A DNA stretch of 64,000 nt from a virus (IMGVR_UViG_3300046171_000271); one strand, 5' to 3'; shown: positions 1-64,000, numbered from the stretch's first letter. Notes: generated from the sequence alone by a model not told the origin. Made by a program: numbers and translations.

Positions 1-85
1 TGCCAGAACTTAATGTTGGTATTACAATGTTTTTTGACAAGGAAAAATCATTCTTGTATAAATCAGAGAAGGAGTATCTATCTAA

Positions 86-730
86 ATGAAAATTTTTCTT
101 GATACTGCGGACACAGATGTGATCGCAAAGTATTTTTCTACGGGGTTAGTAGATGGTGTAACTACTAATCCAACTCTTATTATGAAGAGTGGTAAAAATC
201 CAGAGGATGTTTACCAAACAATCAAGGACATGGGTGTCAAAGACATCAGTATGGAAGTCGTTGGTTCTGATCTTGAAATGTATGATGAGGGCAAACGTCT
301 TTATGAGAAGTTTGGTGATGTATGTACTGTGAAGGTTCCTTGCACACGCGAGGGTTTATCCGTCTGTAAAGCACTTTCTGATCAAGGTGTCAAGGTTAAT
401 GTCACATTGATCTTCTGTGCGGCACAGGGCGTTCTGGCTGCCAAAGCGGGTGCCGCTTATGTTTCGCCATTTGTAGGACGCTTGGATGATCAGTCAGTTG
501 CGGGACTTGAAGTTGTTCGTTCTATTTCTGAGTTGTATCGCATTCATGGAATGAAGACTCAGGTTCTTTCTGCGTCTATTCGTAGTGTTCAAAGAGCAAT
601 CCGTTCATGGTATAATGGTGCTGAGATTTGCACAATGCCACCAAAGGTATTTGATCAAATGTATGATCACATTCTCACTGACAAAGGTTTAGAAATTTTC
701 GATAAAGATTGGGAGTCTGTTAAAAAATGA
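86..730 (+). CDS. talC: Phage transaldolase (TalC/FSA family), auxiliary metabolic gene
   Basis: 214 aa; MKIFLDTAD, GVTTNPTLI, catalytic Lys in TVKVP, VNVTLIF, YVSPFVGRLDD, VLSASIR. Confidence 0.97.
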   Translation: MKIFLDTADTDVIAKYFSTGLVDGVTTNPTLIMKSGKNPEDVYQTIKDMGVKDISMEVVGSDLEMYDEGKRLYEKFGDVCTVKVPCTREGLSVCKALSDQGVKVNVTLIFCAAQGVLAAKAGAAYVSPFVGRLDDQSVAGLEVVRSISELYRIHGMKTQVLSASIRSVQRAIRSWYNGAEICTMPPKVFDQMYDHILTDKGLEIFDKDWESVKK

Positions 731-966
731 GAAGTTTTTCAGTTTACACAAAGATTGGTTGCCCATATTGTACTAAAGTAATTGCTGCTCTTGGACTTGC
801 AGAGCAACAATTTGTAGAGTATAAATTGGGAAGAGATTTTACAAAAACAGAATTTTATGAAAAGTTTGGTGTGGGATCAACCTTTCCCCGTGTTGTATTA
901 AATGATGAATTGATTGGAGGATGTCAAGAAACTGTAAAGTACCTAAGAGAAAACAATTTGGTTTAA
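727..966 (+). CDS. grx: Glutaredoxin
   Basis: 79 aa; CPYC active site, TFPRV and IGGC motifs. Confidence 0.9.
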   Translation: MRSFSVYTKIGCPYCTKVIAALGLAEQQFVEYKLGRDFTKTEFYEKFGVGSTFPRVVLNDELIGGCQETVKYLRENNLV

Positions 967-1319
967 TGGATCAAGAAGTCTACGGAATCGTTGAACAGTC
1001 GATTGATGATGCTTTTATGCAACAAAAATTTAGATTGAATTTCTATGATTATCTTAGAGTAATTGATGCGAAAAGAAAAGACGCTGACGAATTTATTGCC
1101 AGTAGCACCTTCAAAGAAATAAATGATCTAATCATTGAATTGGATGAATATTTAAAAGGAGGACAGGACAATGAACACAAGCAATTACGTGAAGCTTATG
1201 GACATATTCCTAAACCTCAAGCAAGAAAAATCAAACAATTTTTAGAGGGTATCCTTAAAGACGCCGAGAGGTATAGTTATGATAGAAGGCCAGGACGGAG
1301 AACCAAACGCTCTAAATAA
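966..1319 (+). CDS. Conserved cyanophage hypothetical protein
   Basis: Intact ORF; ATG overlaps grx stop (TAATG). Confidence 0.7.
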   Translation: MDQEVYGIVEQSIDDAFMQQKFRLNFYDYLRVIDAKRKDADEFIASSTFKEINDLIIELDEYLKGGQDNEHKQLREAYGHIPKPQARKIKQFLEGILKDAERYSYDRRPGRRTKRSK

Positions 1320-1482
1320 ATCAGAACCCCATCTTAATCGAGGGGTAGAGTTATTACTTAGAAATAGGAGGAGAGCAGAACCGCCCAAAACTTTCCAGGT
1401 AAGGTTTGGAAATATGGTTTCTCTCTTCAAGAGAGACTTTGTTTTCCACTTCAATTTTTATTTGGACATTAGGAAAAGATAG
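1279..1482 (+). CDS. Small hypothetical protein
   Basis: 67-aa ORF in co-directional gene run; start uncertain. Confidence 0.55.
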   Translation: MIEGQDGEPNALNKSEPHLNRGVELLLRNRRRAEPPKTFQVRFGNMVSLFKRDFVFHFNFYLDIRKR

Positions 1483-1501
1483 ACTCTAGGAGGACGGGAA
1501 A

Positions 1502-1726
1502 ATGTTAGCAGTAACATTAACGATCGGAACATTGGTATCAATCATGTTCTTTTTTGTTGGAGGTATGGTAGGATGGTTAGCGAAAGAACATGTTTACGCT
1601 ACACAACCAGTGTATACACATCCCGAAATGTTTGATGAAAATGGGAATATTCTTCCCGATGAAATAGTAGCAGTACGATTTGAAAACGATTATGGCGACT
1701 ACGACGAAGACGAAGAAGAAGGTTGA
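1502..1726 (+). CDS. Small membrane protein, hypothetical
   Basis: N-terminal hydrophobic helix, acidic C-terminus. Confidence 0.7.
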   Translation: MLAVTLTIGTLVSIMFFFVGGMVGWLAKEHVYATQPVYTHPEMFDENGNILPDEIVAVRFENDYGDYDEDEEEG

Positions 1727-2246
1727 ACTTCCACCCAATCCTTTTCTTTTTGAAATTTTAGAACTTGCAAGTAAGCAACGTGCTAAGGCAAAGAAAGTTG
1801 AAGTTCTTCAGCAATATGAAACTGATGCTCTCAAAACTATCTTGATTTGGAACTTTGATGAGACTGTCATTAGTTTAGTTCCAGAAGGTGAAGTGCCATA
1901 TGCAGATGGTAACGATCAATCTGTTTATTCTGGAACTCTATCTGAAAATCTAGCACGGGAAGCAAGAGGTGGAGAGTCTGCAACTGGACAAGATTTAGAC
2001 GGCAGAGGTAAGACTTCACTGCGTAGAGAATATAAAAATCTTTATAACTTTGTGAAAGGTGGTAATGATTCTCTCAGCAATATTCGTAGAGAAATGATGT
2101 TTATCAACCTTCTTCGCGGTTTGCATCCACTGGAAGCTGAGGTTCTTTGTTTGGTAAAGGACAAAAAACTTGCAGATAAGTACAAAATCACTTATGATGT
2201 AGTCAAACAGGCATATCCTGACATTCAGTGGGGTGGACGCAGTTGA
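1680..2246 (+). CDS. Conserved T4-like cyanophage hypothetical protein
   Basis: 188-aa ORF; true start may be 1692. Confidence 0.7.
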   Translation: MKTIMATTTKTKKKVELPPNPFLFEILELASKQRAKAKKVEVLQQYETDALKTILIWNFDETVISLVPEGEVPYADGNDQSVYSGTLSENLAREARGGESATGQDLDGRGKTSLRREYKNLYNFVKGGNDSLSNIRREMMFINLLRGLHPLEAEVLCLVKDKKLADKYKITYDVVKQAYPDIQWGGRS

Positions 2247-2497
2247 AGATTATTAAAGAAGATTGTGATCCTAATGTTGATAACAAAACGGATCTTCCTA
2301 ATAATTGCTATCTTGTAACATACAAGATTGATGATGTAGAGCACTATGATTTAGTATCTGCAGCAAAACAATCAAAAATTTTTGATGCTTACTACGATAA
2401 GTATAAAAGTGATTTCGTAACCATGGTGCAGTCTGAAGGTAGGATCAATCCCAAACTTTGGGGTAATCCTCCTCCAAAAGATAAAAAGAAAAAGTAA
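2228..2497 (+). CDS. Hypothetical protein
   Basis: 89-aa ORF overlapping neighbours. Confidence 0.65.
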   Translation: MGWTQLKIIKEDCDPNVDNKTDLPNNCYLVTYKIDDVEHYDLVSAAKQSKIFDAYYDKYKSDFVTMVQSEGRINPKLWGNPPPKDKKKK

Positions 2498-2712
2498 TGA
2501 GTGGATTCAAAGGATTCATCAATAATCCAGATAAAGACGGAAACGTTAGGTTTGAAATAGATACTGATGAAGTTAGAAAACTTATCAAAAAATACAAAAA
2601 ATTAAAGAAATTTCAAAAATCAAATATCGCTGAATTGTCTAAACTTTCTGGTGTTGAAACAGAGGTTGATCGCTTGATTAACGAAATATGGCATCGACCT
2701 CAGAAGCACTAG
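2497..2712 (+). CDS. Hypothetical protein
   Basis: 71-aa ORF, TAATG coupling; C-terminus may be frameshifted. Confidence 0.6.
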   Translation: MSGFKGFINNPDKDGNVRFEIDTDEVRKLIKKYKKLKKFQKSNIAELSKLSGVETEVDRLINEIWHRPQKH

Positions 2713-3585: not shown

Positions 3586-3908
3586 CATTATTACTAAAAA
3601 TGGACATTACACTTTCTAGTGAAGAAGCAGAACTTCTATTAAACTTGATGATCAATTCGCATATGGATGATAAAGATGATACTTTCCTTGAATATGATTG
3701 TTTTGGAGAGTTAATGAATAAACTTCTGAAGACATGTAGAAAATTTGATGAGGAGAAAGGTGACTGAAGAAGAAAGAAAATTTATCATAAATCTACAACT
3801 AAATAATATTTGTGAAATATTAGATGGGAAACTTAACCATCAACAGGTTATAGACTCTAAAGGTAAATGCTTCAAGAAGAATTATAATCGAATATCAGGA
3901 GAAAAGTA

Positions 3909-4170
3909 ATGCAGGCCTGGATCTACAGTAACGGAAACCAAGAATGTGAAAGAGCTGCTATGCTTTTAAAAAGTATCCATAATTGATTTTCATGAATATC
4001 TTTTAGATAAAGATTTTACAGAGTCTCAGTTCAAAGCAGAATTTGGTGAAAGTGCAGAATATCCACAAATTGCTATTGGTGTAAAGCATCGCGGTAGTCT
4101 CAAAGAACTTTGAATTATCTAAACAAAATAAATTACAAATGTTCATGTTGATACCAACACATTTGACTAA
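3909..4170 (+). CDS. Glutaredoxin-like protein (frameshifted as read)
   Basis: MQAWIYSNGNQECERAAMLL...FKAEFGESAEYPQIAIG; end approximate. Confidence 0.5.
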
Positions 4171-4173
4171 ATA
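4167..4173 (+). promoter_or_regulatory. T4-type late promoter-like box upstream of riboswitch locus
   Basis: CTAAATA, variant of TATAAATA. Confidence 0.4.
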
Positions 4174-4199
4174 GAATTGAAAGTGTATCCTACACTTGT

Positions 4200-4448
4200 C
4201 GTTCATCTCATGCTCAGTATCCTTACTGGCATTGACCCTTGCCTCATCATAATGACGCGTCACTCCTTACGGGTGGCACATGTCTTGTGAAAGGTTCTCT
4301 ACAGACGATCGAGTTGAAATTCCAATGCAGATCCCAATCTCGAGCGCTTCGGTCTAAGTATGAATCTGATAGGTTACCTTAGAGTCGAAAGTTGACGGGC
4401 GAATGTGAAGGGAGCATTCACATGAGACGCAAGTAAGTCGCGGAACGG
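4200..4448 (+). ncRNA. Glutamine riboswitch-like unit 1 with ~210-nt insert in P2 loop
   Basis: P1 CGTTC (4200) / GAACG (4443-4447); P2 CTCATG (4207) / CATGAG (4421); 3' core ACGCAAGTAAGTCGCGGAACG. Confidence 0.6.
4210..4425 (+). CDS. Small protein nested in riboswitch unit 1 (several indels as read)
   Basis: ATG in 5' P2 strand, TGA in 3' P2 strand; fragments HHNDAS, PYGWHMSCERF, DPNL, LIGYL, GECE in shifting frames. Confidence 0.4.
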
Positions 4449-4450
4449 AG

Positions 4451-4630
4451 CGTTCATCCCGTGTTTGAATTTTTACTTTACTCTGGTATTCATTGCACCG
4501 ATGCTAAGGATATGATCCGACGTATCGAAGCAAGTAACAGTGTAAGTAAAATTACTAAGGCTGAGGTTGTTGAGACCGTAAAGGAAGCAACACCTGAGTG
4601 CAAATGGGACGCAAACGACTGAAGGAACGG
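4451..4630 (+). ncRNA. Glutamine riboswitch (Downstream-peptide/glutamine-II type) unit 2 with ~145-nt insert
   Basis: 5' CGTTCATCCC and 3' GGGACGCAAACGACTGAAGGAACGG match the motif as I recall it; lies upstream of a DUF4278-type gene. Confidence 0.75.
4461..4622 (+). CDS. 53-aa protein nested in riboswitch unit 2
   Basis: Intact GTG..TGA ORF MFEFLLYSGIHCTDAKDMIRRIE...TVKEATPECKWDAND; last codons are the aptamer core. Confidence 0.7.
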   Translation: MFEFLLYSGIHCTDAKDMIRRIEASNSVSKITKAEVVETVKEATPECKWDAND

Positions 4631-4663
4631 ACCTAAAAATCCAACTACTTCAGGAGAAAACCA

Positions 4664-4828
4664 ATGAACACACTTACTATCATCAAAAAGCAAATCAACA
4701 AGGCAGCAGCTCTGCATGACGCACAGATTACTCACACCGCATATCGTGGTGTAAAGTCTGAAGTTCGTAAGGTAGGACAGGAGTCTCACGGCACCTTCTG
4801 CTACCGTGGTCGTATCTATACCAAGTAA
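4664..4828 (+). CDS. DUF4278-like small protein
   Basis: 54 aa with AYRGV and CYRGR motifs, SD AGGAG, directly downstream of riboswitch. Confidence 0.75.
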   Translation: MNTLTIIKKQINKAAALHDAQITHTAYRGVKSEVRKVGQESHGTFCYRGRIYTK

Positions 4829-4834
4829 GGAACT

Positions 4835-4930
4835 ATGGAAGCACTACAGTTAACTGGGCTCTTATCCTTAGGTTGTTTTGTTGCTATATCGGTATTTTAC
4901 GGTGAACTCGTCCTTCTTTACAAACACTGA
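4835..4930 (+). CDS. 31-aa hydrophobic peptide
   Basis: MEALQLTGLLSLGCFVAISVFYGELVLLYKH, SD-like AAGGA. Confidence 0.5.
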   Translation: MEALQLTGLLSLGCFVAISVFYGELVLLYKH

Positions 4931-4941
4931 GGGAAAAACAA

Positions 4942-5100
4942 ATGCTGAAGATCAAACTTTATTATGATCTTCCAGAATATAATCCAGAAGTTCACGATCC
5001 TGATAGGGTTTTCAGACTTCTAACATATCGTGGAGTAACTTATGCTAAGTGGATTAATTTAAAATCTCTAGGCATATCAAACTGGAAAGTATTTAAATGA
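4942..5100 (+). CDS. Second DUF4278-like small protein
   Basis: 52 aa with LTYRGVTY motif, SD GAGG. Confidence 0.6.
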   Translation: MLKIKLYYDLPEYNPEVHDPDRVFRLLTYRGVTYAKWINLKSLGISNWKVFK

Positions 5101-5124
5101 GGACCTTGACGGGTCCTCTTTTTT
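5099..5124 (+). terminator. Rho-independent terminator closing the riboswitch operon
   Basis: GAGGACC-TTGACG-GGTCCTC hairpin followed by T-run. Confidence 0.75.
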
Positions 5125-5137
5125 TGTCTATAATTAG

Positions 5138-5341
5138 TTGAAACTATACTATCTTATGGAAAGAGACAAACTTAAATTGATAGTACGGAATCTAAAACTT
5201 CTTGTTGAAGCATTGGAGTCTGAAGTTTATTCGGATATTGATGCTTATACAACACGGCAAGAGAATTATGATGATCCTGCTGCAAATTACATAACTGATT
5301 ACGACGAAGTATTTAATGACGATGATGGATACCCAGACTGA
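5138..5341 (+). CDS. Hypothetical protein
   Basis: 67-aa ORF; TTGACG..TATAAT upstream. Confidence 0.65.
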   Translation: MKLYYLMERDKLKLIVRNLKLLVEALESEVYSDIDAYTTRQENYDDPAANYITDYDEVFNDDDGYPD

Positions 5342-5973
5342 TTAGTAAAACTTATCTCTGTTACTCCTGATGCAGAGAAGCACATGGCCTATTGTGCTCG
5401 CGTAAGTAATCCAAACAATCAGGAGAATGAAAAGTTTGCAGGTCTCCTCAGATATTGTATCAAGCATCAACATTGGAGCATCTTTGAGCAGGCAACAATG
5501 ACTCTAGAGTTGAATACTACAAGGGGAATTGCGGCCCAAGTGCTTCGGCATAGGTCTTTCACATATCAAGAATTTTCACAACGTTATGCTGATTCCTCCT
5601 TATTGGGTGAGACGATCCCGCTCCCCGAACTCCGCCGCCAAGACACCAAGAATCGTCAGAATTCTATTGATGATGTTGACCCGTTTGTTCGTCAAGAGTT
5701 CCAGATTAAAATTACGAAGCACTTTGAAGAAGGTATGAAACTTTATCAGCAGATGCTTGATGCTAACATCGCAAAGGAATGTGCCCGCTTTGTTCTCCCC
5801 CTTGCCGTCCCACCAGACTTTACATGACGGGTTCTAGTCGTCATGGATCCATTATATCGATTTGCGCTCTGCAAACGGCACACAGAAGGAGCACATGGAC
5901 ATTGCTAAGGATGCTAAGACAGTATCTTCTGTGAACAGTTCCCTGCTGTTGCAGAAGCCATTGAGTGGGTTAA
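5325..5973 (+). CDS. thyX: FAD-dependent thymidylate synthase (frameshifted at both ends as read)
   Basis: VKLISVTPDAEK, YCARVSN, HQHWSIFE, QVLRHRSFTYQEFSQRY, KECARFVLP; ends approximate. Confidence 0.93.
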
Positions 5974-40834: not shown

Positions 40835-43800
40835 ATGAGTTTACCTAACGAATTAATATCTGCTGCTCTTGGTGGGGGAGCAGCAGCGGATACTGACTAT
40901 CAGATCCAAAGAAGCCTGAGATTTAACAGTGGCGATACGGCCTATCTTTCCAGAACTCCCTCATCTGCAAGTAATCGCAGGACGTGGACTTGGAGTGGGT
41001 GGGTAAAGTTGATCAGCCTTACGGGTGAAGTTAATTTTTTTAATGGCGGCACAAGCAGCTCAAATGATTTCACTATAAAACTACGAGATGGAAGCTTGTG
41101 GGTTCAAGAATACTCTGGCCTTTGGGCATGGCGATTGAGAACTGATGGCTTGTTTAGAGATCCTTCTGCTTGGTATCACCTTGTGGTTGCATTTGACTCT
41201 ACGCAAACTACTAGCACAAATAGAATTAAAATCTATATTAACGGTATTCAAGAAACCTCTTTTACTACTGCTGAATACCCGTCGGAGAATTTTGAAAGCC
41301 TTGTAAATAAAACTGATCCTCGCTATTTTGGATATAGTCCTGCATACAACTATAGTTCTTTTTATTTAGCTGAGACACACTTTATTGACGGTCAAGCACT
41401 TGCACCGACTGACTTCGGCGAGTTTGACGACAGCAATGTGTGGCAGCCGAAAAATGTTTCAATTAGAAGTATTAACAACGGCACAAACTGGGCAAGCTCT
41501 AGTTATAACGCAGTGACTGGAACAACTGGTTCCACAGACATGACAAATGCGTTTGACGGCAGTCTTTCTACATATACATCATTAGGTTCTGGAGATGGAT
41601 CAGCCACTTCCACTGTTACTTTTACGCCACCGTCATCAATAACAGTAACCAAAAGTGTGCGTGTTTACATTGGCGTAGATAGAGGGCAGTCAATTTCAGT
41701 CAATGGATCTCAGACTAATGCTTCTGTATCAGCAGGATGGAACGATACCGGGTTTACGGGCACTCTTTCAAGTCTTGCTATCGGTCCAACCAATGCAGGC
41801 TCAAGCAGTAACATTGCTGCAATAGAAATCAACGGAGAAATTTTAATTAGTAGCTACAACAATTCCAGCGGCTATGGCACAAATGGCTTCCACCTAGATT
41901 TCAGCGACAATAGCAACGCCCCCGCATTAGGACTGAATGCAAACGAGGCAACTACTTTTAACGGTGTTGATTTTAATAATGCTTCTTATTTGCTGCACGC
42001 TTACAATGCAGATTTTAACTTTGGCACGGGTTCTTTTACAGTTGAGACGTATGTCTATCTTAAAAGCAACACTACAATAGAGGGAATATACGCTACAAGC
42101 GGTGGCGCTGGTGCTAGTCCAAAAATTGTGTTTTATATAGATAATGGAACACCAAAAATCCATCATAACGGATTTGGCAGTAGTACTTATTTGAGTGCAA
42201 CTTCAACTATATCTACCAATACGTGGACTCATCTAGCTTTTGTGAGAAATGGAAGTTCTTGGTCTTGGTACATTGATGGCACGCAAAGCGGTACAGGCTC
42301 AGACAGCACTAATTTTACTTTTACTAACCAAGGGACTGAAATAGGCCAAGGAGGCGAGTCATATTTTTCTCCTTTCGATGGTGTAATCTCAAATCTTAGA
42401 GTAGTTAAGGATGCTGTTTACACATCTGGTTTTACTGCACCTTCTACCCCTCTCAGCAATATCTCTAATACTGTATTGCTGTGTTGTCAATCTAGCAGTA
42501 GTGCTACAGCCGCGACTGTGATACCTAGTAATTTTACCACGTCTGGTACTCCAATCGCTGGTACATTTGGAAATACTAGTTGGACTGTTGGTAACCTGTC
42601 AGCTCCTCCGAGCAACACTGGTGTGTATGCCTCAAACTTTGTATCAAGCAATGGATTTAATGCTTCTTATCCTTCAATAAGAGCATTTGACGGAAACACC
42701 GGAACTTATGCCCAGGCATCAACAACAGGAGGAACTTTAACTTTCACTCCGCCTAGTGCTATTTCATATTCATCATCAATAAAAATATACATGCCATCTG
42801 CAGGCGCTACTGCCACAATAAATGGTGGCAGTGCTATTTCAGTGGCAAACTCTTCGGAAACTACGATTGCTTCAGGTTCTGGAACACTTACGTCGTTAGT
42901 GTTAGCTGCGAGTAATTTGCCGGGTCTTGCGTATATCAAGATTGATGATCAAATTTTAGTTAATACAGGATTAGATTCAGGAACTGACAGCCTTGTAGAC
43001 ACGCCGACGAACTACGGCGATGACACTGGCGCGGGTGGTGAAGTCCGTGGCAACTATGCGACGTTTAACCCTCTTTCCATTAAAGCCAACCAAGGCACAA
43101 TGGAGAATGGAAATTTAACGTTGAAGGCTAGTGGCTCATACTACATTGAAGGTAAGTCAACAATTGATGTATTCAGTGTTGACAATTATTCTGAACTAAC
43201 AGTTACTTCAGTAAGTGGTATTGATTCTTTTGCCTATGGAATTGGCGATATTGACGCTTGGGTTATTACTGGCGGCGGATCATATGTTGTTTACAGAGAA
43301 AACGGTGCGATTATTTCTTACCCTGGGAATACAACTTTAGGGACAGTCAGCAGTTATACGCAAGGTGATGTTCTTGGCATGGCTGTTGATTCTACAAATG
43401 TCAAGTTCTACAAGAACGGGACATTGCAAGGTACATACGCGCATGGCAAGTCTGGAACATTTTTTGCGATGGCAATGAATGTTCCTAACACAGGAAGTGC
43501 TCAGCTAGACATTAACTTCGGTCAACGTGAGTGGGCTTTCTCGGCACCAAGTGGTTACAAGGCGTTATGCACGCAGAACCTATCTGAGCCAACGATTGCT
43601 GATGGTTCGGCTTATTTTGACACCAAGCTGTACACCGGCAATGGCAGCACACAGACAATTTCAGGTCTTTCGTTTAGCCCAGATTTAACCTGGGTAAAAG
43701 GACGTTCTGCTACCCAACATCATTTTTACGATACTGTGCGTGGTGCTGGTGAAGGAAAATCACTGCAATCAACCACTACAAACGCCGAAGGCTCTGCCTT

Positions 43801-45451
43801 GGATAATGCAACTTATGGATATCTAAGTGCTCACACGTCTGATGGCTTTACAGTAGATGCCGGAAGTTCTCCTACCTATTTGAACGTTAATAACATTAAC
43901 TACGTTGCCTGGGCATGGGACGCAGGTGCAAACAGCAGCAAGACTTATAACGTCACCGTTGTTTCAGATAGCGGCAACAAGTATCGCTTTGATGGGCATG
44001 GAACGAGTGCTGTAACGCTTGATCTTGAGGAAGGCAGCACATATACATTTGATCAATCAGATAGCAGCAATGCAGGGCATCCCATACGGTTCTCTACAAC
44101 GTCTGATGGAACGCATGGCAGTGGCAGTGAGTACACCACTGGTGTTGTAACTAGTGGAACGCCAGGATCTGCTGGTGCATACACGAAGATTACAATTGCA
44201 TCTGGTGCTCCAACGCTTTATTACTACTGCTCAGTGCATAGCGGAATGGGCGGTCAGGCAAATACAAACAGCACTGCTGGTGCGACAGTGTTGTCAGGCA
44301 GTTTGAATGATGACTTGTACGATCAAAGCCAGAATTGGACTAGCTTCGGGACTGGCACTCATTGGGGAACTAGAAGTTGGGCTAATTCATTTAATGGTGT
44401 TATAGGGACTGGCCCCAATGATCATACATTGCCTGCAGCGGGTCAGACTATGACCTGGACTCCTTCTTCAGCTATAACTGTAAATGAGTCCGTAGTTATT
44501 TACGGCAACAATGATACTGACAATTCAACTTACGGAATCAAACTGAATGGAGGTAACTTTGTACTTCCTGCCAACGCTGGGGTGTATGGAGCCCCTGTGA
44601 CTATTCTGGCTGCAGAACTTAGTGGTTCTCTGACTAGTATCGAATTAATATCTGATGCATCGCATAACGCACCATATCTGACAGCCGTTAAAGTTGACGG
44701 CAAACTCCTGGTTGACTCTAGCGTTAGTATTACTACCCCATCAATCAATTCTGTAGTCCGCGCCAATCCGGCTGCTGGGTTCTCGATTGTTTCTGTAACT
44801 GAAGCGGCAGCGTCAGGCGGTAGCACTGTGGGGCATGGATTAAACGCGAAACCTCATATGATCATAGAGAAAAGTAGAACTGGTTCTACGCCTTGGTACA
44901 TACATAATTCCGAGTTAGGTGATATGTCTGGATCATTTCTTCGTTTTGACACTGGTACCAAACAAGTTGATAACGCTTGGAATTTAGTTGAGCCCACTTC
45001 CACAACTTTTGGAATTGATCCCACTTATGTACTTGGCGACGCAAATGCTGATGTAATATATTACCTTTTCACCCCAGTGGAAGGCTATAGCGCGATTGGT
45101 TCGTACACAGCAAATGCTTTAGATGACGGGCCCTATGTATATACCGGCTTCAGGCCGAAATGGATCATGATCAAACATGCGACTGGTACTGGCAGTGCCT
45201 ATTCGAGTTGGATAATTCTTGATACAGAGAGAGATACTTACAATGTGTCTGACGCAAGCTTGCTTGCAAACAGGACTTCGGTTGAAGGCACTCGTGGTGA
45301 TGGCGCAGGAACTGCTGGGCCATGGATGGATATTCTTTCCAACGGCTTTAAAATTAGATACTCTTGGCAAGTTGTAAATGGAACAAGCGGTGATAAGTAC
45401 ATCTACATGGCCTTCGCCGAGAATCCTTTCAAAACCGCCCGTGCGCGGTAA
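40835..45451 (+). CDS. Large tail-fibre/receptor-binding protein with LamG/ConA-like, SPRY-like and cupredoxin-like domains
   Basis: 1538 aa intact; RRTWTWSGWVK..AWYHLVVAFD, WTHLAFVRNG..ISNLRVVK, GDVLGMAVD..FYKNG, YYYCSVHSGMG. Confidence 0.8.
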   Translation: MSLPNELISAALGGGAAADTDYQIQRSLRFNSGDTAYLSRTPSSASNRRTWTWSGWVKLISLTGEVNFFNGGTSSSNDFTIKLRDGSLWVQEYSGLWAWRLRTDGLFRDPSAWYHLVVAFDSTQTTSTNRIKIYINGIQETSFTTAEYPSENFESLVNKTDPRYFGYSPAYNYSSFYLAETHFIDGQALAPTDFGEFDDSNVWQPKNVSIRSINNGTNWASSSYNAVTGTTGSTDMTNAFDGSLSTYTSLGSGDGSATSTVTFTPPSSITVTKSVRVYIGVDRGQSISVNGSQTNASVSAGWNDTGFTGTLSSLAIGPTNAGSSSNIAAIEINGEILISSYNNSSGYGTNGFHLDFSDNSNAPALGLNANEATTFNGVDFNNASYLLHAYNADFNFGTGSFTVETYVYLKSNTTIEGIYATSGGAGASPKIVFYIDNGTPKIHHNGFGSSTYLSATSTISTNTWTHLAFVRNGSSWSWYIDGTQSGTGSDSTNFTFTNQGTEIGQGGESYFSPFDGVISNLRVVKDAVYTSGFTAPSTPLSNISNTVLLCCQSSSSATAATVIPSNFTTSGTPIAGTFGNTSWTVGNLSAPPSNTGVYASNFVSSNGFNASYPSIRAFDGNTGTYAQASTTGGTLTFTPPSAISYSSSIKIYMPSAGATATINGGSAISVANSSETTIASGSGTLTSLVLAASNLPGLAYIKIDDQILVNTGLDSGTDSLVDTPTNYGDDTGAGGEVRGNYATFNPLSIKANQGTMENGNLTLKASGSYYIEGKSTIDVFSVDNYSELTVTSVSGIDSFAYGIGDIDAWVITGGGSYVVYRENGAIISYPGNTTLGTVSSYTQGDVLGMAVDSTNVKFYKNGTLQGTYAHGKSGTFFAMAMNVPNTGSAQLDINFGQREWAFSAPSGYKALCTQNLSEPTIADGSAYFDTKLYTGNGSTQTISGLSFSPDLTWVKGRSATQHHFYDTVRGAGEGKSLQSTTTNAEGSALDNATYGYLSAHTSDGFTVDAGSSPTYLNVNNINYVAWAWDAGANSSKTYNVTVVSDSGNKYRFDGHGTSAVTLDLEEGSTYTFDQSDSSNAGHPIRFSTTSDGTHGSGSEYTTGVVTSGTPGSAGAYTKITIASGAPTLYYYCSVHSGMGGQANTNSTAGATVLSGSLNDDLYDQSQNWTSFGTGTHWGTRSWANSFNGVIGTGPNDHTLPAAGQTMTWTPSSAITVNESVVIYGNNDTDNSTYGIKLNGGNFVLPANAGVYGAPVTILAAELSGSLTSIELISDASHNAPYLTAVKVDGKLLVDSSVSITTPSINSVVRANPAAGFSIVSVTEAAASGGSTVGHGLNAKPHMIIEKSRTGSTPWYIHNSELGDMSGSFLRFDTGTKQVDNAWNLVEPTSTTFGIDPTYVLGDANADVIYYLFTPVEGYSAIGSYTANALDDGPYVYTGFRPKWIMIKHATGTGSAYSSWIILDTERDTYNVSDASLLANRTSVEGTRGDGAGTAGPWMDILSNGFKIRYSWQVVNGTSGDKYIYMAFAENPFKTARAR

Positions 45452-48939: not shown

Positions 48940-49218
48940 TTGACAAAATCCACTGGAAATAAATTTGGTTTCAATATGCTATTGGCAACTACAAAAATGA
49001 AACGTCCTAGTTTACTTGATTCAACAGGTTCAGTTCAATTTCCTTTTGAAACATTTCCCTGGAGACTTGAACTAAAAGACGTAGTGTGTCACTTTGAGTG
49101 TAAAGAACACATGATAAAGTATCTGAACAGATACGAATTTAAACCAAAAGATGTGAAAATTTCTAATCGTTATGGCGAAAAGTATCAGTACAGAGGTAAA
49201 AAAAAGAAATCTACATAG
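48940..49218 (+). CDS. Hypothetical protein
   Basis: 92-aa ORF; start uncertain. Confidence 0.5.
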   Translation: MTKSTGNKFGFNMLLATTKMKRPSLLDSTGSVQFPFETFPWRLELKDVVCHFECKEHMIKYLNRYEFKPKDVKISNRYGEKYQYRGKKKKST

Positions 49219-49237
49219 TGGTAGATGCGAAACAGGT

Positions 49238-49717
49238 ATGAGTGATGAATTGCCTATTAAACCGCACACACAAATCTTAGTTCTCAACAATAGTTACGAA
49301 CCAATTAATGTTACAAATTGGAAACGTGCTATTGTTCTTCTTCTTAAGGAAAAAGCACAAGCATTATCAAAACGAGTCATCAGATTAGTTAATTATATTC
49401 GTATCCCTTTTGCAAAAATCATCGCTCATACACCATCAAGAGCGATGATTTACAAGAGGGACAATAATAAGTGTCAGTATTGTGGGGCTACAAGATCACT
49501 TACTATTGATCATGTTATCCCCAGAAGTCGTGGAGGTGGGGACACTTGGGATAATTTAGTTATTGCATGTTCATCATGTAATGTCAAGAAAGGAGATAAA
49601 TTTCTTGAACAAACTAACATGAAACTTGCAAGAAAACCTTTTACCCCCTATAATAAGGTACAATTTTCATTATCTGGTACTCAAGTGCCTGAATGGCAGG
49701 AGTTTTTATTTGTATGA
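49238..49717 (+). CDS. HNH endonuclease (McrA-like family)
   Basis: LVLNNSYEP, RDNNKCQYCG, TIDHVIPRSRGG..TWDNLV.AC..CN..KG. Confidence 0.9.
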   Translation: MSDELPIKPHTQILVLNNSYEPINVTNWKRAIVLLLKEKAQALSKRVIRLVNYIRIPFAKIIAHTPSRAMIYKRDNNKCQYCGATRSLTIDHVIPRSRGGGDTWDNLVIACSSCNVKKGDKFLEQTNMKLARKPFTPYNKVQFSLSGTQVPEWQEFLFV

Positions 49718-50276: not shown

Positions 50277-51128
50277 ATGAATCAAATTTTGTTATCTGAT
50301 TGTGTGTCGGGGATGAAGACACTTGGTAGTGAATCTATTGACTTATGCGTCACATCCCCTCCTTATGATGATCTTCGTTCATATAATGATAGTTCATCAT
50401 GGAACTTTGATACATTTAAGAATGTCGCCACTGAACTTTATCGTGTGATGAAGATTGGCGGTGTTGTTGTATGGGTGATTGGAGATGCTACAGTCAAAGG
50501 TAGTGAAACTGGTTCTAGTTTCCGTCAGGTTCTACACTTTATGGATCTTGGGTTTCTATTACATGACACCATGATCTATGAGAAAAATGGTAGTCCTTTT
50601 CCAGCAAAGAGGACAGGTAACAGATATTCACAAATCTTTGAGTATATGTTTGTCTTCTCAAAGAAAACTAAACCAAAGACTGCACATTTGCTGTGTGATA
50701 AACCAAATCGATGGGCAGGATATACACACTTTGGCAAGGGAACTATCAGGACTAAAGATGGACAACTAAAAGATAGGCAAATTAAACCCATCCCGGAATT
50801 TAGTCCAAGAAATAACATCTGGAAATATAATACAGGCAAAGGATACTCAACTAAAGATGATGTTGCCTTTGAACATCCCGCAATCTTTCCCGAAAAGTTA
50901 GCTAAAGATCATATTCTTACATGGAGTGATGAGGGAGATATAGTTTTAGATCCTTTTATGGGTTCAGGAACTACTGCTGTTTGTTGTTTAGAAACGAAGA
51001 GAAAGTTTATAGGATTTGAGATTGATAAAACTTATCATGACATCTGCACTAGGAGATTAGAACAGCATGTGACAGTTGAAGAAGCGTCACTACCGGAGTC
51101 GAACCCTCTGGAGGATGCTCTATATTGA
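50277..51128 (+). CDS. Beta-class amino-methyltransferase (N4-cytosine/N6-adenine DNA MTase)
   Basis: Motif IV TSPPY near N-terminus, HPAIFP, motif I VLDPFMGSGTT, FIGFEI. Confidence 0.92.
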   Translation: MNQILLSDCVSGMKTLGSESIDLCVTSPPYDDLRSYNDSSSWNFDTFKNVATELYRVMKIGGVVVWVIGDATVKGSETGSSFRQVLHFMDLGFLLHDTMIYEKNGSPFPAKRTGNRYSQIFEYMFVFSKKTKPKTAHLLCDKPNRWAGYTHFGKGTIRTKDGQLKDRQIKPIPEFSPRNNIWKYNTGKGYSTKDDVAFEHPAIFPEKLAKDHILTWSDEGDIVLDPFMGSGTTAVCCLETKRKFIGFEIDKTYHDICTRRLEQHVTVEEASLPESNPLEDALY

Positions 51129-51149: not shown

Positions 51150-51803
51150 ATGACTGCAACAACAATCCGCGACTACTTCAGCGATTCTAATATCGTTGCT
51201 GAAATTGTCCGCGAACTCAACACGGAGATCGGGTTCTGTCCCATTCTTCGCAATCTCAAACGAGAGAAGGATTATGGCGTCATTGATAACGACAGCATCA
51301 CATTCCGTGAACTAGGGGCCGAAGATCGGAATGAGGTGTTTGTCTATCTGGGACGTATCCTTGAGTCTGTTCTTACCTGCCAACTGGCAAAGTGCGATTC
51401 TTTCGATGTAAAGAAGGATCGCAGTTCTTCTGGTGATGTTACCATCAACGGACGCATCTGGGAGATCAAAGGAACATCTGGTAAGAACTCTTGGACTGGT
51501 TCTACACATGCCACCAAGAAAGAAGACGACAAGATGGACTTCATCGGTATCAAGTATGGACTGAATGAAGACATCAACGTCTTTGATATCTTTACTGGTG
51601 ACTCTAAACTGATTGAAGAAATCTTCATCGGTGTATTCGATCAGATCGAATTGATCCGCCGGGGTAGTGCTACTCAGTCCAATTCTCGCACTTCTCTTCT
51701 CATCGGTATTGATGAGTATGAGACAGTTAAGGAGCAAATTGCATGGGGTTGGCTCAAGAAACCACAACGCAATGGTAAGTATCTTCAACTATGTGCCGCC
51801 TGA
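51150..51803 (+). CDS. Putative PD-(D/E)XK (restriction-like) endonuclease
   Basis: RILESVL helix, then GDVTINGRIWEIK; directly downstream of MTase. Confidence 0.5.
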   Translation: MTATTIRDYFSDSNIVAEIVRELNTEIGFCPILRNLKREKDYGVIDNDSITFRELGAEDRNEVFVYLGRILESVLTCQLAKCDSFDVKKDRSSSGDVTINGRIWEIKGTSGKNSWTGSTHATKKEDDKMDFIGIKYGLNEDINVFDIFTGDSKLIEEIFIGVFDQIELIRRGSATQSNSRTSLLIGIDEYETVKEQIAWGWLKKPQRNGKYLQLCAA

Positions 51804-51861
51804 GGTAGTGGCACACGGGGGGTTTCGCACCTCCCTTTTTCATGTATTATTAAAGAGTCAA
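51792..51861 (+). promoter_or_regulatory. Palindrome + -10 early promoter unit (representative copy)
   Basis: TGTGCC-N12-GGCACA, 29 nt, TATTAT, AAAGAGTCAAAGG. Confidence 0.7.
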
Positions 51862-61223: not shown

Positions 61224-61252
61224 CTAAAAGCATCACCAACTGGAGCAGATTC

Positions 61253-61429
61253 ATGTCGGTTTCTTACAACCAATCACAGAAGCAACGTTACAGAATCACC
61301 CTGGATATAGAGGTGTACGATGACTTCAATCCCCATCAAATTGACTTCGAGGAGTTATTTGGAATGGAAGGAACCGAGCGGGTTGTTGATAGTTACGTAG
61401 AGGATTTAAGTAACCCTATCAGTTGGTGA
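61253..61429 (+). CDS. Small acidic hypothetical protein
   Basis: 58 aa, SD GGAG (my translation). Confidence 0.55.
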   Translation: MSVSYNQSQKQRYRITLDIEVYDDFNPHQIDFEELFGMEGTERVVDSYVEDLSNPISW

Positions 61430-61592
61430 TTAACAGGCCTATCATATTTTGCGTGGAATGACAGTGTTATGTGCCAGTCTTATTTGCGGCACACGATATA
61501 AGCACGGGGGTGTAGATGCCTTATATTAGGTACATCGGAGGGGGATCACACTCAACCCTCCACTAACACTCTCCACCCACACTTTCTTTACC

Positions 61593-61943: not shown

Positions 61944-61990
61944 AACTTACTGTTAGTTCGTTACACTTTCCACCTCACATTCTTTTCGTT

Positions 61991-62152
61991 ATGAACACCA
62001 CCAACACTTATAGTCTCTCTAACTTAACTGAAGAGCAGTTAGATGCTATCAGTTCCGCTCTAAAAGATTACGCGGATTATGGTGAAGAAGAGGCGACAAT
62101 CGCTGACGAGATTGATGCTAAAATCAACAGCATCTTTCGTATCACTGAGTGA
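61991..62152 (+). CDS. Small acidic hypothetical protein
   Basis: 53 aa (my translation). Confidence 0.5.
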   Translation: MNTTNTYSLSNLTEEQLDAISSALKDYADYGEEEATIADEIDAKINSIFRITE

Positions 62153-62211
62153 TATAAACCTAGGGTAATCGTTCGCCAGTTCTTTACACTCTCCACCTCA
62201 CAATCGTCACC

Positions 62212-62427
62212 ATGTATCAACTCCAACGTGTTCCGGGTAATGATTACGCAACCGATCTTATTAACGCACGAAAGTATTACGGAGAGATGCTAGATGCGTA
62301 TGCGAAAGTAGATTCTCCAGATGACGATTATCTGCTCAAACTATCAGAAACTGTTGGGGAGATTGAAACACTTTGGCAGCAGTATTTGAGAATGATTGAC
62401 AACAAGCGTCAAGGATGTGCGTGGTGA
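62212..62427 (+). CDS. Hypothetical protein
   Basis: 71-aa ORF. Confidence 0.55.
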   Translation: MYQLQRVPGNDYATDLINARKYYGEMLDAYAKVDSPDDDYLLKLSETVGEIETLWQQYLRMIDNKRQGCAW

Positions 62428-62505
62428 GTGTTGCTAACCGTGGGGACAGTAAGTGTTACATAGTCCCCACACCAGTTCTTTACACAACCAACGAAATGTG
62501 CTAAT

Positions 62506-62595
62506 CTATTACTAATTCAAACTCAATCGTCTATCTATTACTAATGCTTACTCCAGTTACTATTACTAACACACAGTGAGTTTCTATTAGTAATA
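62506..62595. repeat. TATTACTAA cluster: three direct copies and one inverted, in non-coding DNA
   Basis: CTATTACTAA at 62506, 62535, 62560; TTAGTAATA at 62587. Confidence 0.8.
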
Positions 62596-62760
62596 ACGAA
62601 AAAGTATGATTGCAGGATATTCGTGTTAGGCAGTTATTTTATTTGTGGTTAATTATAATAAGCGAAGCGATGCCCCCCGTTATAAAAACGCCTAACTACC
62701 CTAACCTACAGAGGTGACAAAACGCGAGAGTGATTTCGCTTTTATAAAAAAAATTTTCGG

Positions 62761-62902
62761 TATGAAAAAAACGCCCTATTGGAATTTTTGGAGAGTTGTA
62801 TTTGCAGGCTGGATGATCAGATATCCTGGAAAGTTTATGCGCCCCTTTGCATTTGTCGGAGGGTTTCTTATTGTGCTGATATATAATGCGCTTACAAATT
62901 AA
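62761..62902 (+). CDS. Small membrane protein
   Basis: MKKTPYWNFWRVVFAGWMIRYP..hydrophobic tail. Confidence 0.55.
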
Positions 62903-62937
62903 AAGTAAGCAAAAAAATTTTCGGAGGAAAAAATTGC

Positions 62938-63147
62938 ATGTCCAGGATTTATCACATTTATGCGAAAGGAGAGTGTTTATATCACAGTTTAAATGAGCAA
63001 CAGTTTCAAGATACATGGAAACAATTGCAAGGTATGGTAGGATTAATGAAGACAGAGTATAATGTAGAAGATCTCTCATATGAAACTGTGCAATTACTCA
63101 CAGAACATCGCGTGTACGGTGAACCGTCAGGAAGTGATTCCTATTGA
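62938..63147 (+). CDS. Conserved cyanophage hypothetical protein
   Basis: YHIYAKGECLYHSL. Confidence 0.65.
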   Translation: MSRIYHIYAKGECLYHSLNEQQFQDTWKQLQGMVGLMKTEYNVEDLSYETVQLLTEHRVYGEPSGSDSY

Positions 63148-63195
63148 CAACTACATATCACTGAACTATAATTGAACTGAAGTTAATTCCAACTC

Positions 63196-63976
63196 ATGGC
63201 AAAAGGATTTACTGTTAAGACTGTTCCACCGAAGAAAAAAGAATCTGATACCGGATGGGACATTGATGCGATTAAGCAACGTATGCAAGGTAAGAAGATT
63301 GTATTCTGTCTTCCTGGGCGCGGTTGCTCGTATGTATTTTTAAAGAACTTTGTACAACTTTGTTTTGATCTTGTACAAAATGGAATGAGTATTCAAATTA
63401 GTCAAGATTACTCATCAATGGTTAATTTTGCACGATGCAAATGTCTTGGTGCAAATGTATTGCGCGGCCCTGATCAATTACCTTGGGACGGGAAGCTCGA
63501 ATATGATTATCAACTATGGATTGATAGTGATATTGTATTCACTACTGAAAAGTTTTGGCAACTATGTGACTTAGCAATTAATGCTGAGGGCGAAGAGAAA
63601 GCAAATTGTTGCTGGATGGTATTCCACAGAAGATGGACAGACTACTTCCGTTGCACACTGGTTGGAAGAAGATGACTTCCGTAAGAACGGTGGTGTGATG
63701 AATCATGAAACCATTGAATCTATTTCCAAGCGTAAGAAACCATTTACTGTTGACTACACAGGTTTTGGATGGGTAATGATTCAGAATGGTGTCTTCGAGA
63801 ATGAAGAGATGAAGTATCCATGGTTTGCTCCTAAGATGCAAATCTTTGAAAGTGGTGCAGTTCAGGACATGTGTGGCGAAGATGTGTCATTCTGTCTGGA
63901 TGCTATTGAAGCAGGATATGAGATCTGGTGTGATCCTCGTATTCGTGTAGGCCACGAAAAAACTCGCGTTATTTGA
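63196..63976 (+). CDS. GT-A glycosyltransferase-like protein (frameshift near 63600)
   Basis: FCLPGR, LWIDSD.VF (DxD), VDYTGFGWV, GEDVSFC, RVGH. Confidence 0.75.
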
Positions 63977-64000
63977 GGACTTAAATTATGGCAGTACGTG

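What the first reader, a model, noticed from the sequence alone, without database searches (positions are those of the whole stretch)
1..64000. Apparent window-wide avoidance of GGWCC (GGACC/GGTCC)
Seen: Gly is mostly GGT/GGA here, yet more than 20 Gly-Pro dipeptides I checked use GGC/GGG-CCN (e.g. 9216, 17006, 18080, 18266, 26902, 28341, 34699, 48428, 63466). A non-exhaustive manual scan found only five GGWCC sites: 4629 and 5101/5112 in structured non-coding RNA, 41783 in the compositionally foreign fibre gene, and 52113 in the early region. Established: GGWCC is the AvaII/SinI-type restriction site. Inference: this reflects long-term selection by a host GGWCC restriction system, or self-avoidance of a phage-encoded nuclease such as those at 51150 or 57170.
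Basis: partly seen in the sequence, partly recalled or inferred. Interest (0 to 1): 0.65.

Follow-up and report, generated by a model that had tools for sequence, protein, structure and literature searches.

The report
Cyanophage purged of its own nuclease's site
This marine cyanobacterial virus has removed almost every copy of the four-letter word GACC/GGTC from its DNA, most likely so that a restriction-type nuclease it carries can cut host or rival DNA but not its own; a cultured relative with the same nuclease has none of the 465 copies expected.

Summary
But GGWCC is only a subset. The purged word is the asymmetric tetramer GACC/GGTC: 23 observed against 167±9 expected (z −15.5). It is removed by synonymous choice in all six codon phases. 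Between 8 and 40 kb there are none, against ~121 expected.

Survivors cluster in two islands that look imported: a hypervariable segment with broken genes (3.6–6.0 kb) and a fibre-gene segment whose relatives all lie in non-avoiding phages.

Across about 290 related loci the purge is bimodal. It tracks a mobile two-gene module present in the window:
- an SPPY (m4C-type) methyltransferase (50277–51128);
- a 217-aa protein (51150–51803) with a confident restriction-endonuclease fold.

All 49 loci carrying this nuclease family are GACC-depleted. Ten complete non-avoiding phage genomes lack it. Cultured Synechococcus phage DSL-LC02 has the nuclease, no methyltransferase of four families searched, and 0 GACC/GGTC against 465 expected.

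Best reading (about 0.6): the phage avoids the site of its own nuclease. A host GACC restriction system is the main rival.

Unresolved: the nuclease is predicted to be a symmetric dimer, yet the word is asymmetric.

Earlier notes of this scan report the same principle for CATG, CTAG and GATC on other DNA.

The parts
1..64000 (.). Window-wide purge of the tetramer GACC/GGTC in both orientations. There are 23 sites (8 GACC, 15 GGTC), and only 3 lie outside the two islands (2696, 52113, 61766).
   Evidence: Markov expectation 216, zero-order 267, codon-shuffle 167±9 (z −15.5). 8001–40000: 0 observed against ~121 expected. 46001–64000: 2 against ~78.
50277..51128 (+). Beta-class DNA methyltransferase, 283 aa, motif IV SPPY (N4-cytosine type). 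It is an accessory gene within its clade.
   Evidence: Pfam PF01555, E 1.1e-45. The best solved relatives are cytosine-N4 MTases 8s9m/8s9n, and VTSPPYDDL is aligned. It is absent from the slot in the collinear relatives L167, L168, L170, L171 and L175. The purged word follows the MTase clade.
51150..51803 (+). ORF217: a PD-(D/E)XK restriction-endonuclease-fold protein (invariant E72, D96, E105, K107), predicted to be a homodimer. It is the proposed GACC/GGTC-directed nuclease.
   Evidence: No Pfam, PHROG or NCBIfam match. Family alignment A1. AF2 model pLDDT 88.7, pTM 0.86. Fold matches are nearly all Type II REases: 3ndh Z 9.1, NaeI 8.0, EcoRV Foldseek probability 0.97. The profile HMM finds it in 49 loci, all GACC-depleted. 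Dimer ipSAE 0.80 against 0.00 for the best control.
51817..51835 (+). Terminator-like hairpin plus T-run, 14 nt after the ORF217 stop codon. It is the likely end of the MTase–nuclease transcription unit.
   Evidence: consensus scan only.
3587..5971 (+). Island 1: a hypervariable or replaced segment with a full density of sites (4234, 4351, 4574, 4630, 4808, 5102, 5112, 5441, 5553, 5678). Its genes are broken relative to their homologues: nrdC is split and thyX has in-frame stops. The neighbouring phoH is frameshifted near 6850.
   Evidence: Bin 4001–6000 has 10 observed against 10.1 expected. There is no collinear match to clade relatives between 3587 and 5345, while the flanks are 78–88% identical. 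Broken frames. The closest relatives L081 and L082 have 0 sites in the same block.
5099..5125 (+).
   Evidence: Sequence read.
41390..44452 (+). Island 2: nine sites (8 GGTC, 1 GACC) inside the 1538-aa fibre gene (40835–45451). GC is 0.41–0.445 here, against 0.377 for the window.
   Evidence: All nine viral contigs with a related fibre C-terminal region are non-avoiders (O/E 0.84–1.13), one of them 91% identical over the last 131 residues.
49172..49717 (+). HNH endonuclease, about 560 bp upstream of the MTase (context only). It is present in clade relatives with and without the MTase, so it is not the correlate of the purge.
   Evidence: Pfam PF01844, E 3.6e-17; phrog_16726; distribution.

Best explanation
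The phage carries a restriction-modification-like module: an m4C-type methyltransferase (50277–51128) and a restriction-fold nuclease (ORF217, 51150–51803). The nuclease's target is, or contains, GACC/GGTC. Because the phage expresses this nuclease in every infected cell, each GACC/GGTC in its own fast-replicating DNA is a liability. Selection has therefore removed the word through synonymous and other neutral changes. The result is immunity by absence: host chromosomes and rival phages carry a site every 100–400 bp and can be cut, while the phage cannot. The methyltransferase acts as a back-up. It covers the few sites that remain or that arrive with imported DNA (the two islands), and it can be lost once the genome has no sites.

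Shown here: the purge, its codon-level signature, its clade distribution, the fold of ORF217, the gene linkage, and the association of the module with the purge.

Inferred: that ORF217 cuts at GACC/GGTC, that methylation blocks it, and that its biological targets are host and/or competitor DNA.
For: (1) GACC/GGTC is the most depleted 4-mer by Markov and codon-shuffle tests. It is removed in all six codon phases: GGT|C 1/474, GAC|C 0/186 against GAT|C 136/760, NGG|TCN 0/289. Both orientations are affected, so the pressure acts on DNA, not on RNA or translation.
(2) At aligned positions avoiders keep GACC in 1.7% of cases, against 24–37% for control words. The replacements are diverse (GTCC 19%, GATC 17%, GGCC 3.5%), which indicates selection and not one mutational route.
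(3) ORF217 has a confident REase fold with an invariant E…D…ExK.
(4) The nuclease HMM hits 49 loci, all GACC-depleted. In contigs that share no other gene with the window (L229, L230, L232, L234–236) the nuclease abuts the MTase start.
(5) All 62 viral loci whose MTase is at least 64% identical are depleted (O/E 0.00–0.63), including both avoider clades of the tail-protein tree.
(6) The purged word follows the MTase phylogeny: GACC in the large clade and GATC 0.00–0.02 in a giant-virus-like clade. Syn9 and P-TIM40 sit on a long branch with a different partner ORF and purge GAAC/GTTC instead.
(7) The complete genome of cultured phage DSL-LC02 has the nuclease (E 6e-118), none of the MTase families PF01555, PF02086, PF00145 or PF05869, and 0 GACC/GGTC against 465 expected.
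(8) Ten complete non-avoiding cyanophage genomes lack the nuclease, with a positive control.
(9) Slot-spanning relatives without the MTase have 0 sites against 158 expected. MTase-bearing relatives have 15 against 225, and the window has 23.
(10) P-TIM40 shows extreme purges although its isolation host NATL2A has no detectable DNA methylation (PMC8518828).
Against: The specificity of the nuclease and of the MTase is unmeasured.

The nuclease is predicted to be a symmetric homodimer, which normally reads a palindrome, whereas GACC/GGTC is asymmetric. Details: ipSAE 0.80 in three runs against 0.00 for the best of 3 controls; in the calibration 20 of 30 true pairs and 1 of 23 single chains reached the mark; contact agreement at least 91%; partner pLDDT at least 85; the pass may reflect likeness to solved REase dimers. 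The degenerate palindrome GRYC would reconcile this, but GATC and GGCC are normal in the window and in MTase-free DSL-LC02.

The association could partly reflect shared hosts.

Most loci are partial contigs. 24 avoider loci show neither gene in the stretch held, and some MTase-bearing avoiders (L214–222, L244–255) show no detectable nuclease.

A protective MTase makes a purge less obviously necessary.

Island 1 could be an assembly chimera. This could not be checked with reads.
Confidence: 0.62

Rival explanations
1. A host-encoded restriction system with GACC specificity drives the purge, for example a Type III system like H. pylori ModH5 (G-m6A-CC), or a Type IIS system. On this view the phage methyltransferase is an acquired counter-defence against the same system, and ORF217 is unrelated or a captured passenger.
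For: Four-base GACC recognition by a Type III Mod exists, and GACC is under-represented in H. pylori chromosomes (PMC5700931). Every cyanophage lineage sampled has its own purged words (CCGG, CTAG, CATG, GTAC), the classic signature of host restriction. Some Prochlorococcus strains methylate their DNA. Some avoiders show an MTase but no detectable nuclease. Shared hosts could produce the gene–purge association.
Against: This view does not explain why a restriction-fold nuclease is linked to the MTase in about 40 loci, or why that nuclease family occurs only in purged DNA. It does not explain DSL-LC02, which has the nuclease, no MTase and 0 of 465 sites. Nor does it explain why the purged word changes with the phage's own MTase clade. 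Avoidance of Type III sites by phages is reported as very rare (PMC6286503). No host genome could be examined.
Confidence: 0.22
2. An inverse system: the phage MTase marks GACC in host DNA and ORF217 is a methylation-dependent (DpnI-like) nuclease that cuts the marked DNA. The phage must then lack the word entirely.
For: It would explain why an MTase and the absence of its own site occur together. DpnI is among the fold matches (Z 6.7).
Against: DSL-LC02 has the nuclease but no MTase of four families. The window and L183, L192, L196, L207 and L226 keep 10–23 sites while carrying both genes, which would be lethal under this model.
Confidence: 0.05
3. Host GGWCC (AvaII/SinI-type) restriction.
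For: GGWCC is depleted (5 against 35.5). AvaII-type enzymes are known in cyanobacteria (own knowledge).
Against: GACC/GGTC outside the GGWCC context is depleted to the same degree (18 against 130). GGWCC shows no depletion beyond its 4-mer content. Of the 23 surviving GACC/GGTC sites, 5 are GGWCC, close to the roughly 4 expected from base composition.
Confidence: 0.02
4. A mutational process causes the depletion, not selection. Candidates are deamination of methylated cytosine in GACC, or very-short-patch repair converting GGTC to GGCC.
For: GGTC and GGCT are single-deamination products of GGCC. GATC is one of the two commonest replacements.
Against: The replacements are diverse and the commonest is a transversion (GTCC 19%). 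GGCC is only 3.5% of replacements. GGCC is not enriched in the window (O/E 0.96). O/E of 0.00 over 168 kb is far beyond known mutational depletions (own knowledge: CpG about 0.2 in vertebrates).
Confidence: 0.02

Closest known systems
Restriction-site avoidance in virulent dsDNA phages (Rusinov et al. 2018, PMC6286503)
   Same: A short word is eliminated far beyond what composition and codon usage predict. The purge is lineage-specific and achieved by synonymous substitutions.
   Different: Published avoidance concerns almost only palindromic sites of orthodox Type II host systems. Here the word is an asymmetric tetramer, and the best correlate is a nuclease gene in the phage itself, not a host system.
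Virus-borne R-M systems of chloroviruses and clade A Marseilleviridae (Jeudy et al. 2020, PMC7253447)
   Same: An adjacent MTase and REase of prokaryotic type are carried by a virus. Their proposed roles are host-DNA degradation (chloroviruses) or exclusion of competing viruses (marseilleviruses). The module is present in some clades and absent in others.
   Different: Those viruses keep their sites and methylate them; melbournevirus DNA would be cut into 387 GATC fragments if unmethylated. Here the sites are gone, the MTase is dispensable, and a cultured relative has the nuclease alone.
H. pylori ModH5, a Type III methyltransferase (G-m6A-CC; PMC5700931), and EcoP1I (AGACC; own knowledge)
   Same: The same four-base asymmetric word is recognised. 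GACC is under-represented in H. pylori chromosomes.
   Different: Those are Type III systems with a large Mod (DPPY motif, m6A) and a helicase-nuclease Res. The phage MTase is a 283-aa SPPY enzyme, and its partner is a 217-aa EcoRV/NaeI-like fold protein.
EcoRV / NaeI / ThaI(3ndh) / SfiI branch of PD-(D/E)XK Type II endonucleases
   Same: Fold (VIA-align Z 9.1–6.2 over about 147 residues), the E…D…ExK arrangement, and a predicted symmetric homodimer.
   Different: Sequence identity is only 8–14% and there is no Pfam family. Those enzymes read palindromes, whereas the word associated with ORF217 is asymmetric.
Earlier notes of this scan (unchecked): lone PvuII-fold nuclease with CATG-free cyanophages, MjaI-family nuclease with CTAG-free phages, MutH/Sau3AI-type nuclease with a GATC-free giant virus
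   Same: The same principle: a virus-encoded restriction-type nuclease and a genome purged of the presumed site, often without an MTase.
   Different: A different nuclease family and a non-palindromic word. Here the MTase is variably present, which allows a with/without comparison.

Membership tests
Restriction-site avoidance (phage genomic signature) | The word is depleted beyond base, dinucleotide and trinucleotide composition and beyond codon usage. | tested here: met
   23 against 216 (Markov); 23 against 167±9 (codon shuffle, z −15.5).
Restriction-site avoidance (phage genomic signature) | The depletion affects both strands and all reading phases (a DNA-level target). | tested here: met
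   8 GACC and 15 GGTC remain. All six codon-phase contexts are purged.
Restriction-site avoidance (phage genomic signature) | A cognate restriction enzyme exists in the host. | not testable with these tools
   The host is unknown. The genome-contig scan returned only phage contigs mis-binned in MAGs, and no host handle could be obtained.
Type II restriction-modification system | A DNA methyltransferase with SAM-binding and catalytic motifs. | tested here: met
   PF01555, E 1.1e-45. SPPY at residue 27 and DPFMGSGTT aligned to N4-cytosine MTases.
Type II restriction-modification system | An adjacent endonuclease gene with a nuclease fold and catalytic residues. | tested here: met
   The gap is 21 nt. 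Model pLDDT 88.7. REase fold matches reach Z 9.1. E72, D96, E105 and K107 are invariant in 20 sequences. The two genes are adjacent, in either order, in about 40 loci.
Type II restriction-modification system | Both enzymes act on the same sequence, and methylation blocks cleavage. | not testable with these tools
   This needs biochemistry. Only indirect support exists: the purged word follows the MTase clade and the presence of the nuclease.
Type III restriction-modification system (EcoP1I / ModH5 type) | A large Mod subunit (m6A, DPPY motif, central target-recognition domain) together with a Res helicase-nuclease subunit. | tested here: not met
   The MTase is 283 aa with SPPY. Its partner is a 217-aa single-domain PD-(D/E)XK protein. 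The only ResIII-domain protein (55875–56834, 319 aa) lies 4 kb away and matches phage DNA helicases.
AvaII/SinI-type GGWCC systems | The depletion is confined to GGACC/GGTCC. | tested here: not met
   HGACC plus GGTCD is 18 against 130, the same O/E (0.14) as GGWCC.
Chlorovirus / marseillevirus-type virus-borne R-M | The viral genome retains the sites and is protected by methylation. | tested here: not met
   The sites are purged (O/E 0.11 in the window; 0/465 in DSL-LC02, which has no MTase). The methylation state itself could not be tested.

The most novel reading that the evidence does not exclude
ORF217 founds a new family of restriction endonucleases with a four-base, non-palindromic specificity (GACC/GGTC). 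T4-like cyanophages and other aquatic viruses use it offensively, to shred host chromosomes and rival phages. Self-protection comes from having no sites ('immunity by absence') and not from DNA modification. This would answer how cyanophages that lack hydroxymethylcytosine tell their own DNA from the host's. Sister modules with other words (GAAC/GTTC in Syn9 and P-TIM40, GATC in giant-virus-like contigs) would make it a general, swappable strategy.
Probability: 0.45. Interest if true: 0.88.

Novelty: new variant of a known kind. Interest (0 to 1): 0.78.

Why it matters
If this reading is right, a genome-wide compositional oddity reveals the specificity of an uncharacterised nuclease family.

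It also points to a way of telling self from non-self that needs no DNA modification. T4 protects itself from its own host-degrading nucleases with modified cytosine, but T4-like cyanophages have ordinary cytosine, and how they spare their own DNA is not understood.

Other consequences:
- A phage-borne cutter of a 4-bp word would shape competition between co-infecting cyanophages and the recycling of host nucleotides in the ocean.
- The residual-site islands become a built-in marker of recently imported DNA, for example host-range fibre modules.
- A 4-bp asymmetric restriction specificity would be a useful reagent.
- A cultured system (DSL-LC02) makes all of this directly testable.

Tried and rejected
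1. GGWCC as the unit. Rejected: the depletion is equal outside the GGWCC context.

2. 'Structured RNA' at 4629–5112. There is no Rfam family. The 5101/5112 pair is a terminator hairpin.

3. Deamination or VSP-repair origin. Rejected on the replacement spectrum and the GGCC level.

4. GRYC degenerate palindrome, proposed to reconcile the predicted dimer with the word. GGCC and GATC are depleted more often among avoiders. But both are normal in the window and in MTase-free DSL-LC02, so it is rejected as the target there.

5. Syn9 gp61 as a relative of ORF217. hhalign probability is 1% and there is no Pfam match, so no relation was detected.

6. A host survey was not possible. No whole genome is held for the window. 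The single genome-contig scan returned cyanophage contigs mis-binned in archaeal and planctomycete MAGs. A taxon name is not accepted as a search centre.

8. It occurs once, against 0.34 expected by chance, and 28% of shuffles reach one, so it is not supported as a recurring element.

9. The sigma-70 promoter scan around the module gave no more matches than shuffles did.

10. Motif IV does not differ between MTase clades; all have SPPY.

Full report
**Observation.** The window is a T4-like cyanomyovirus. It carries CP12, thyX, phoH, a gp48-like baseplate protein and tail fibres. Its nearest isolates are only about 35% identical in protein.

After shuffling synonymous codons within 94 ORFs, GGWCC is 5 observed against 35.5±3.9 expected (z −7.8). 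The control CCWGG is unaffected, and GGSCC is over-represented at 34 against 12.8.

**The real unit.** An unbiased k-mer scan shows that the depleted word is the asymmetric tetramer GACC/GGTC. There are 23 occurrences against 216 (maximal-order Markov), 267 (zero-order) or 167±9 (codon shuffle; z −15.5; minimum of 300 shuffles 142). This is the strongest outlier of all 4-mers. GGWCC is not depleted beyond its 4-mer content. GACC/GGTC outside the GGWCC context has the same O/E of 0.14.

The related words GGAC/GTCC are normal.

The purge is achieved by synonymous choice in all six codon phases:
- GGT|C 1/474, against 13–16% for the other Gly codons
- GGA|CCN 0/482 and AGA|CCN 0/316
- GAC|C 0/186, against GAT|C 136/760
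- NGG|TCN 0/289 (Trp-Ser is always TGG-AGT)
- ACC after a G-ending codon 1/147
- GTC after a G-ending codon 0/98

Both orientations are purged, so the pressure acts on double-stranded DNA.

**Where the survivors are.** Of the 23 sites, 13 lie between 2696 and 6949 and 9 between 41390 and 44452. From 8 to 40 kb there are none against ~121 expected. From 46 to 64 kb there are 2 against ~78.

*Island 1.* Its core (bin 4001–6000) has 10 sites against 10.1 expected, that is, unpurged DNA.
- Clade relatives are collinear with the window at 78–88% identity on both sides but have no match to 3587–5345.
- The genes here are broken relative to their S-SM2 homologues: nrdC is split, thyX has in-frame stops, and phoH is frameshifted.
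- The closest relatives have no sites in the same block.

*Island 2* lies in the GC-richer part of the 1538-aa fibre gene. All nine contigs with a related fibre C-terminal region are non-avoiders, one of them 91% identical over the last 131 residues.

Both islands therefore look like imports from non-avoiding phages. An assembly chimera cannot be excluded for island 1.

**Distribution among relatives.** In 69 IMG/VR loci anchored on a tail protein, GACC O/E is bimodal: 0.00–0.23 in some lineages and about 0.75–1.1 in others. A tree gives two separate, well-supported avoider clades with non-avoiders between them. One mosaic non-avoider is nested inside the window's clade.

In 80 phoH-anchored loci, the six closest (91–96% identical) are all avoiders and the other 74 are not.

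Eleven isolate or single-virus genomes show no GACC avoidance.

Each lineage has its own purged words: CCGG, CTAG, CATG, GTAC, GATC and AGCC/GGCT.

At aligned positions avoiders keep GACC in 1.7% of cases, against 24–37% for control words. The replacements are diverse, led by a transversion. This argues for selection and against deamination or VSP repair.

**The module.** The non-structural part of the window encodes a PF01555 methyltransferase (50277–51128). Its motif IV is SPPY and its best solved relatives are cytosine-N4 enzymes.

Twenty-one nucleotides downstream lies ORF217 (51150–51803), which has no family match. What is known about it:
- It has about 100 homologues, all 'hypothetical'.
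- E72, D96, E105 and K107 are invariant.
- A confident model (pLDDT 88.7, pTM 0.86) matches Type II restriction endonucleases almost exclusively: 3ndh Z 9.1, NaeI 8.0, SfiI and DpnI 6.7, EcoRV Foldseek probability 0.97.

A terminator-like hairpin follows it.

**Association with the purge.**
- All 62 viral loci whose MTase is at least 64% identical are GACC-depleted (O/E 0.00–0.63). They include contigs of both avoider clades.
- A profile HMM finds the nuclease family in 49 loci, every one of them depleted. In contigs that share no other gene with the window, the nuclease abuts the MTase start.
- The purged word follows the MTase tree: GACC in the large clade, and GATC 0.00–0.02 in a giant-virus-like clade. 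Syn9 and P-TIM40 sit on a long branch, have an unrelated partner ORF, and purge GAAC/GTTC instead (Syn9 whole genome: 258 against 1317, its most depleted 4-mer).
- Within the window's clade the MTase is accessory. Slot-spanning relatives that lack it have 0 sites against 158 expected. MTase-bearing relatives have 15 against 225, and the window has 23. These contigs are partial and related, so this comparison is only suggestive.

**The decisive case.** Cultured Synechococcus phage DSL-LC02 (OR032571.1) is the only isolate with the nuclease (66.5% identity; profile E 6e-118). Its complete 167,928-bp genome has zero GACC/GGTC against 465 expected (z −18).

GATC and GGCC are normal in it. It has no member of PF01555, PF02086, PF00145 or PF05869.

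Ten complete non-avoiding cyanophage genomes lack the nuclease.

**Interpretation.** The most economical reading is that ORF217 is a GACC/GGTC-directed nuclease carried by the phage, and that the genome has been purged of its site. The MTase then acts as an optional back-up for residual or newly imported sites.

It parallels virus-borne R-M systems in chloroviruses and marseilleviruses, which however keep and methylate their sites (PMC7253447).

The main rival is a host GACC system. Such specificity exists (ModH5, PMC5700931). But that view does not explain the nuclease linkage or DSL-LC02, and avoidance of Type III sites is reported as rare (PMC6286503).

**Unresolved.** ORF217 is predicted to be a symmetric homodimer: ipSAE 0.80 against 0.00 for the best control. 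In the calibration, 20 of 30 true pairs and 1 of 23 single chains reached the mark. Contact agreement is at least 91% and pLDDT at least 85. The pass may reflect likeness to solved REase dimers.

A symmetric dimer should read a palindrome. The degenerate palindrome GRYC would fit, but it is excluded for the window and for DSL-LC02.

A two-site mechanism or an unusual reading of the central base step remains possible. Specificity, methylation and biological targets are all inferred, not shown.

**Relation to earlier notes.** I reached this reading. After that I found that earlier notes of this scan flag the same gene pair in this window, and that they report the same principle for CATG, CTAG and GATC on other DNA. 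Those are unchecked leads, not support.

Noticed in passing
window 3909-6984: A run of genes is broken relative to the S-SM2 homologues. nrdC is split across two frames (3909–3980 and 4009–4107). thyX has in-frame stops from about 5826. An SSM2_274-like ORF is split. phoH is frameshifted near 6850. The rest of the window has long intact ORFs.
   Followed up: partly
window 4140-4450: An ORF-poor stretch of about 300 nt just upstream of small conserved ORFs. Part of it matches Synechococcus phages at the nucleotide level (from about 4171 in S-8S55). No Rfam family matches.
   Followed up: no
L281-L289 (Syn9 whole genome), L259 (P-TIM40): The model cyanophage Syn9 is strongly purged of the asymmetric tetramer GAAC/GTTC (258 against 1317). 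It is also purged of the whole degenerate palindrome RGCY (AGCT, AGCC/GGCT, GGCC), of GTAC, and of CCGG (2 against 277). P-TIM40 is even more extreme (GAAC 1/62, GTAC 0/61, AGCT 0/41). In both, the MTase homologue is preceded by an overlapping ORF of about 210 aa and unknown family (Syn9 gp61, PTIM40_59).
   Followed up: partly
L071, L072, L073 (P-SSM2, P-HM1, P-TIM68): Prochlorococcus myoviruses almost lack AGCC/GGCT (2/26, 1/19, 0/15) and GGCC, while AGCT is spared in P-HM1. This is a second 'asymmetric' purge with an unknown cause.
   Followed up: no
L233, L238, L242, L246, L256, L257 (IMG/VR, some named GVMAG): Giant-virus-like contigs carry a 60–62% identical SPPY methyltransferase. They have 0–2 GATC where 61–129 are expected, and normal GACC.
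   Followed up: no
L070 (S-SM2 140001-190000); L020-L059: S-SM2 has 0 CTAG in 50 kb (155 expected). A large clade of uncultured relatives has 0 CCGG.
   Followed up: no
window, whole: Several 6-bp palindromes are absent or nearly so: TTCGAA 0 (19–43 expected), GTGCAC 0, GACGTC 0, TCGCGA 0, GCATGC 0, GTTAAC 4 against 23 (two sites, counted on both strands). AGCT (O/E 0.39–0.48), AGCC/GGCT (0.45) and GTAC (0.56) are also depleted.
   Followed up: no
L161-L166 (genome contigs): Cyanophage contigs with CP12 (71–87% identical to the window's) are binned in public MAGs labelled Methanobacteriota, Verrucomicrobiales, Pirellulaceae and Rhodopirellula. This is probably mis-binning.
   Followed up: no
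L011 (IMG/VR 3300030103_004489): A non-avoider nested inside the avoider clade looks mosaic. It has about 2 sites per kb in the 4 kb around the tail gene, against about 5.6 per kb in the rest.
   Followed up: partly
window 49172-49717: An HNH endonuclease whose best NCBIfam matches are the HNH domains of IscB/Cas9 (E 1e-18). It sits upstream of the MTase slot in clade relatives whether or not the MTase is present.
   Followed up: partly
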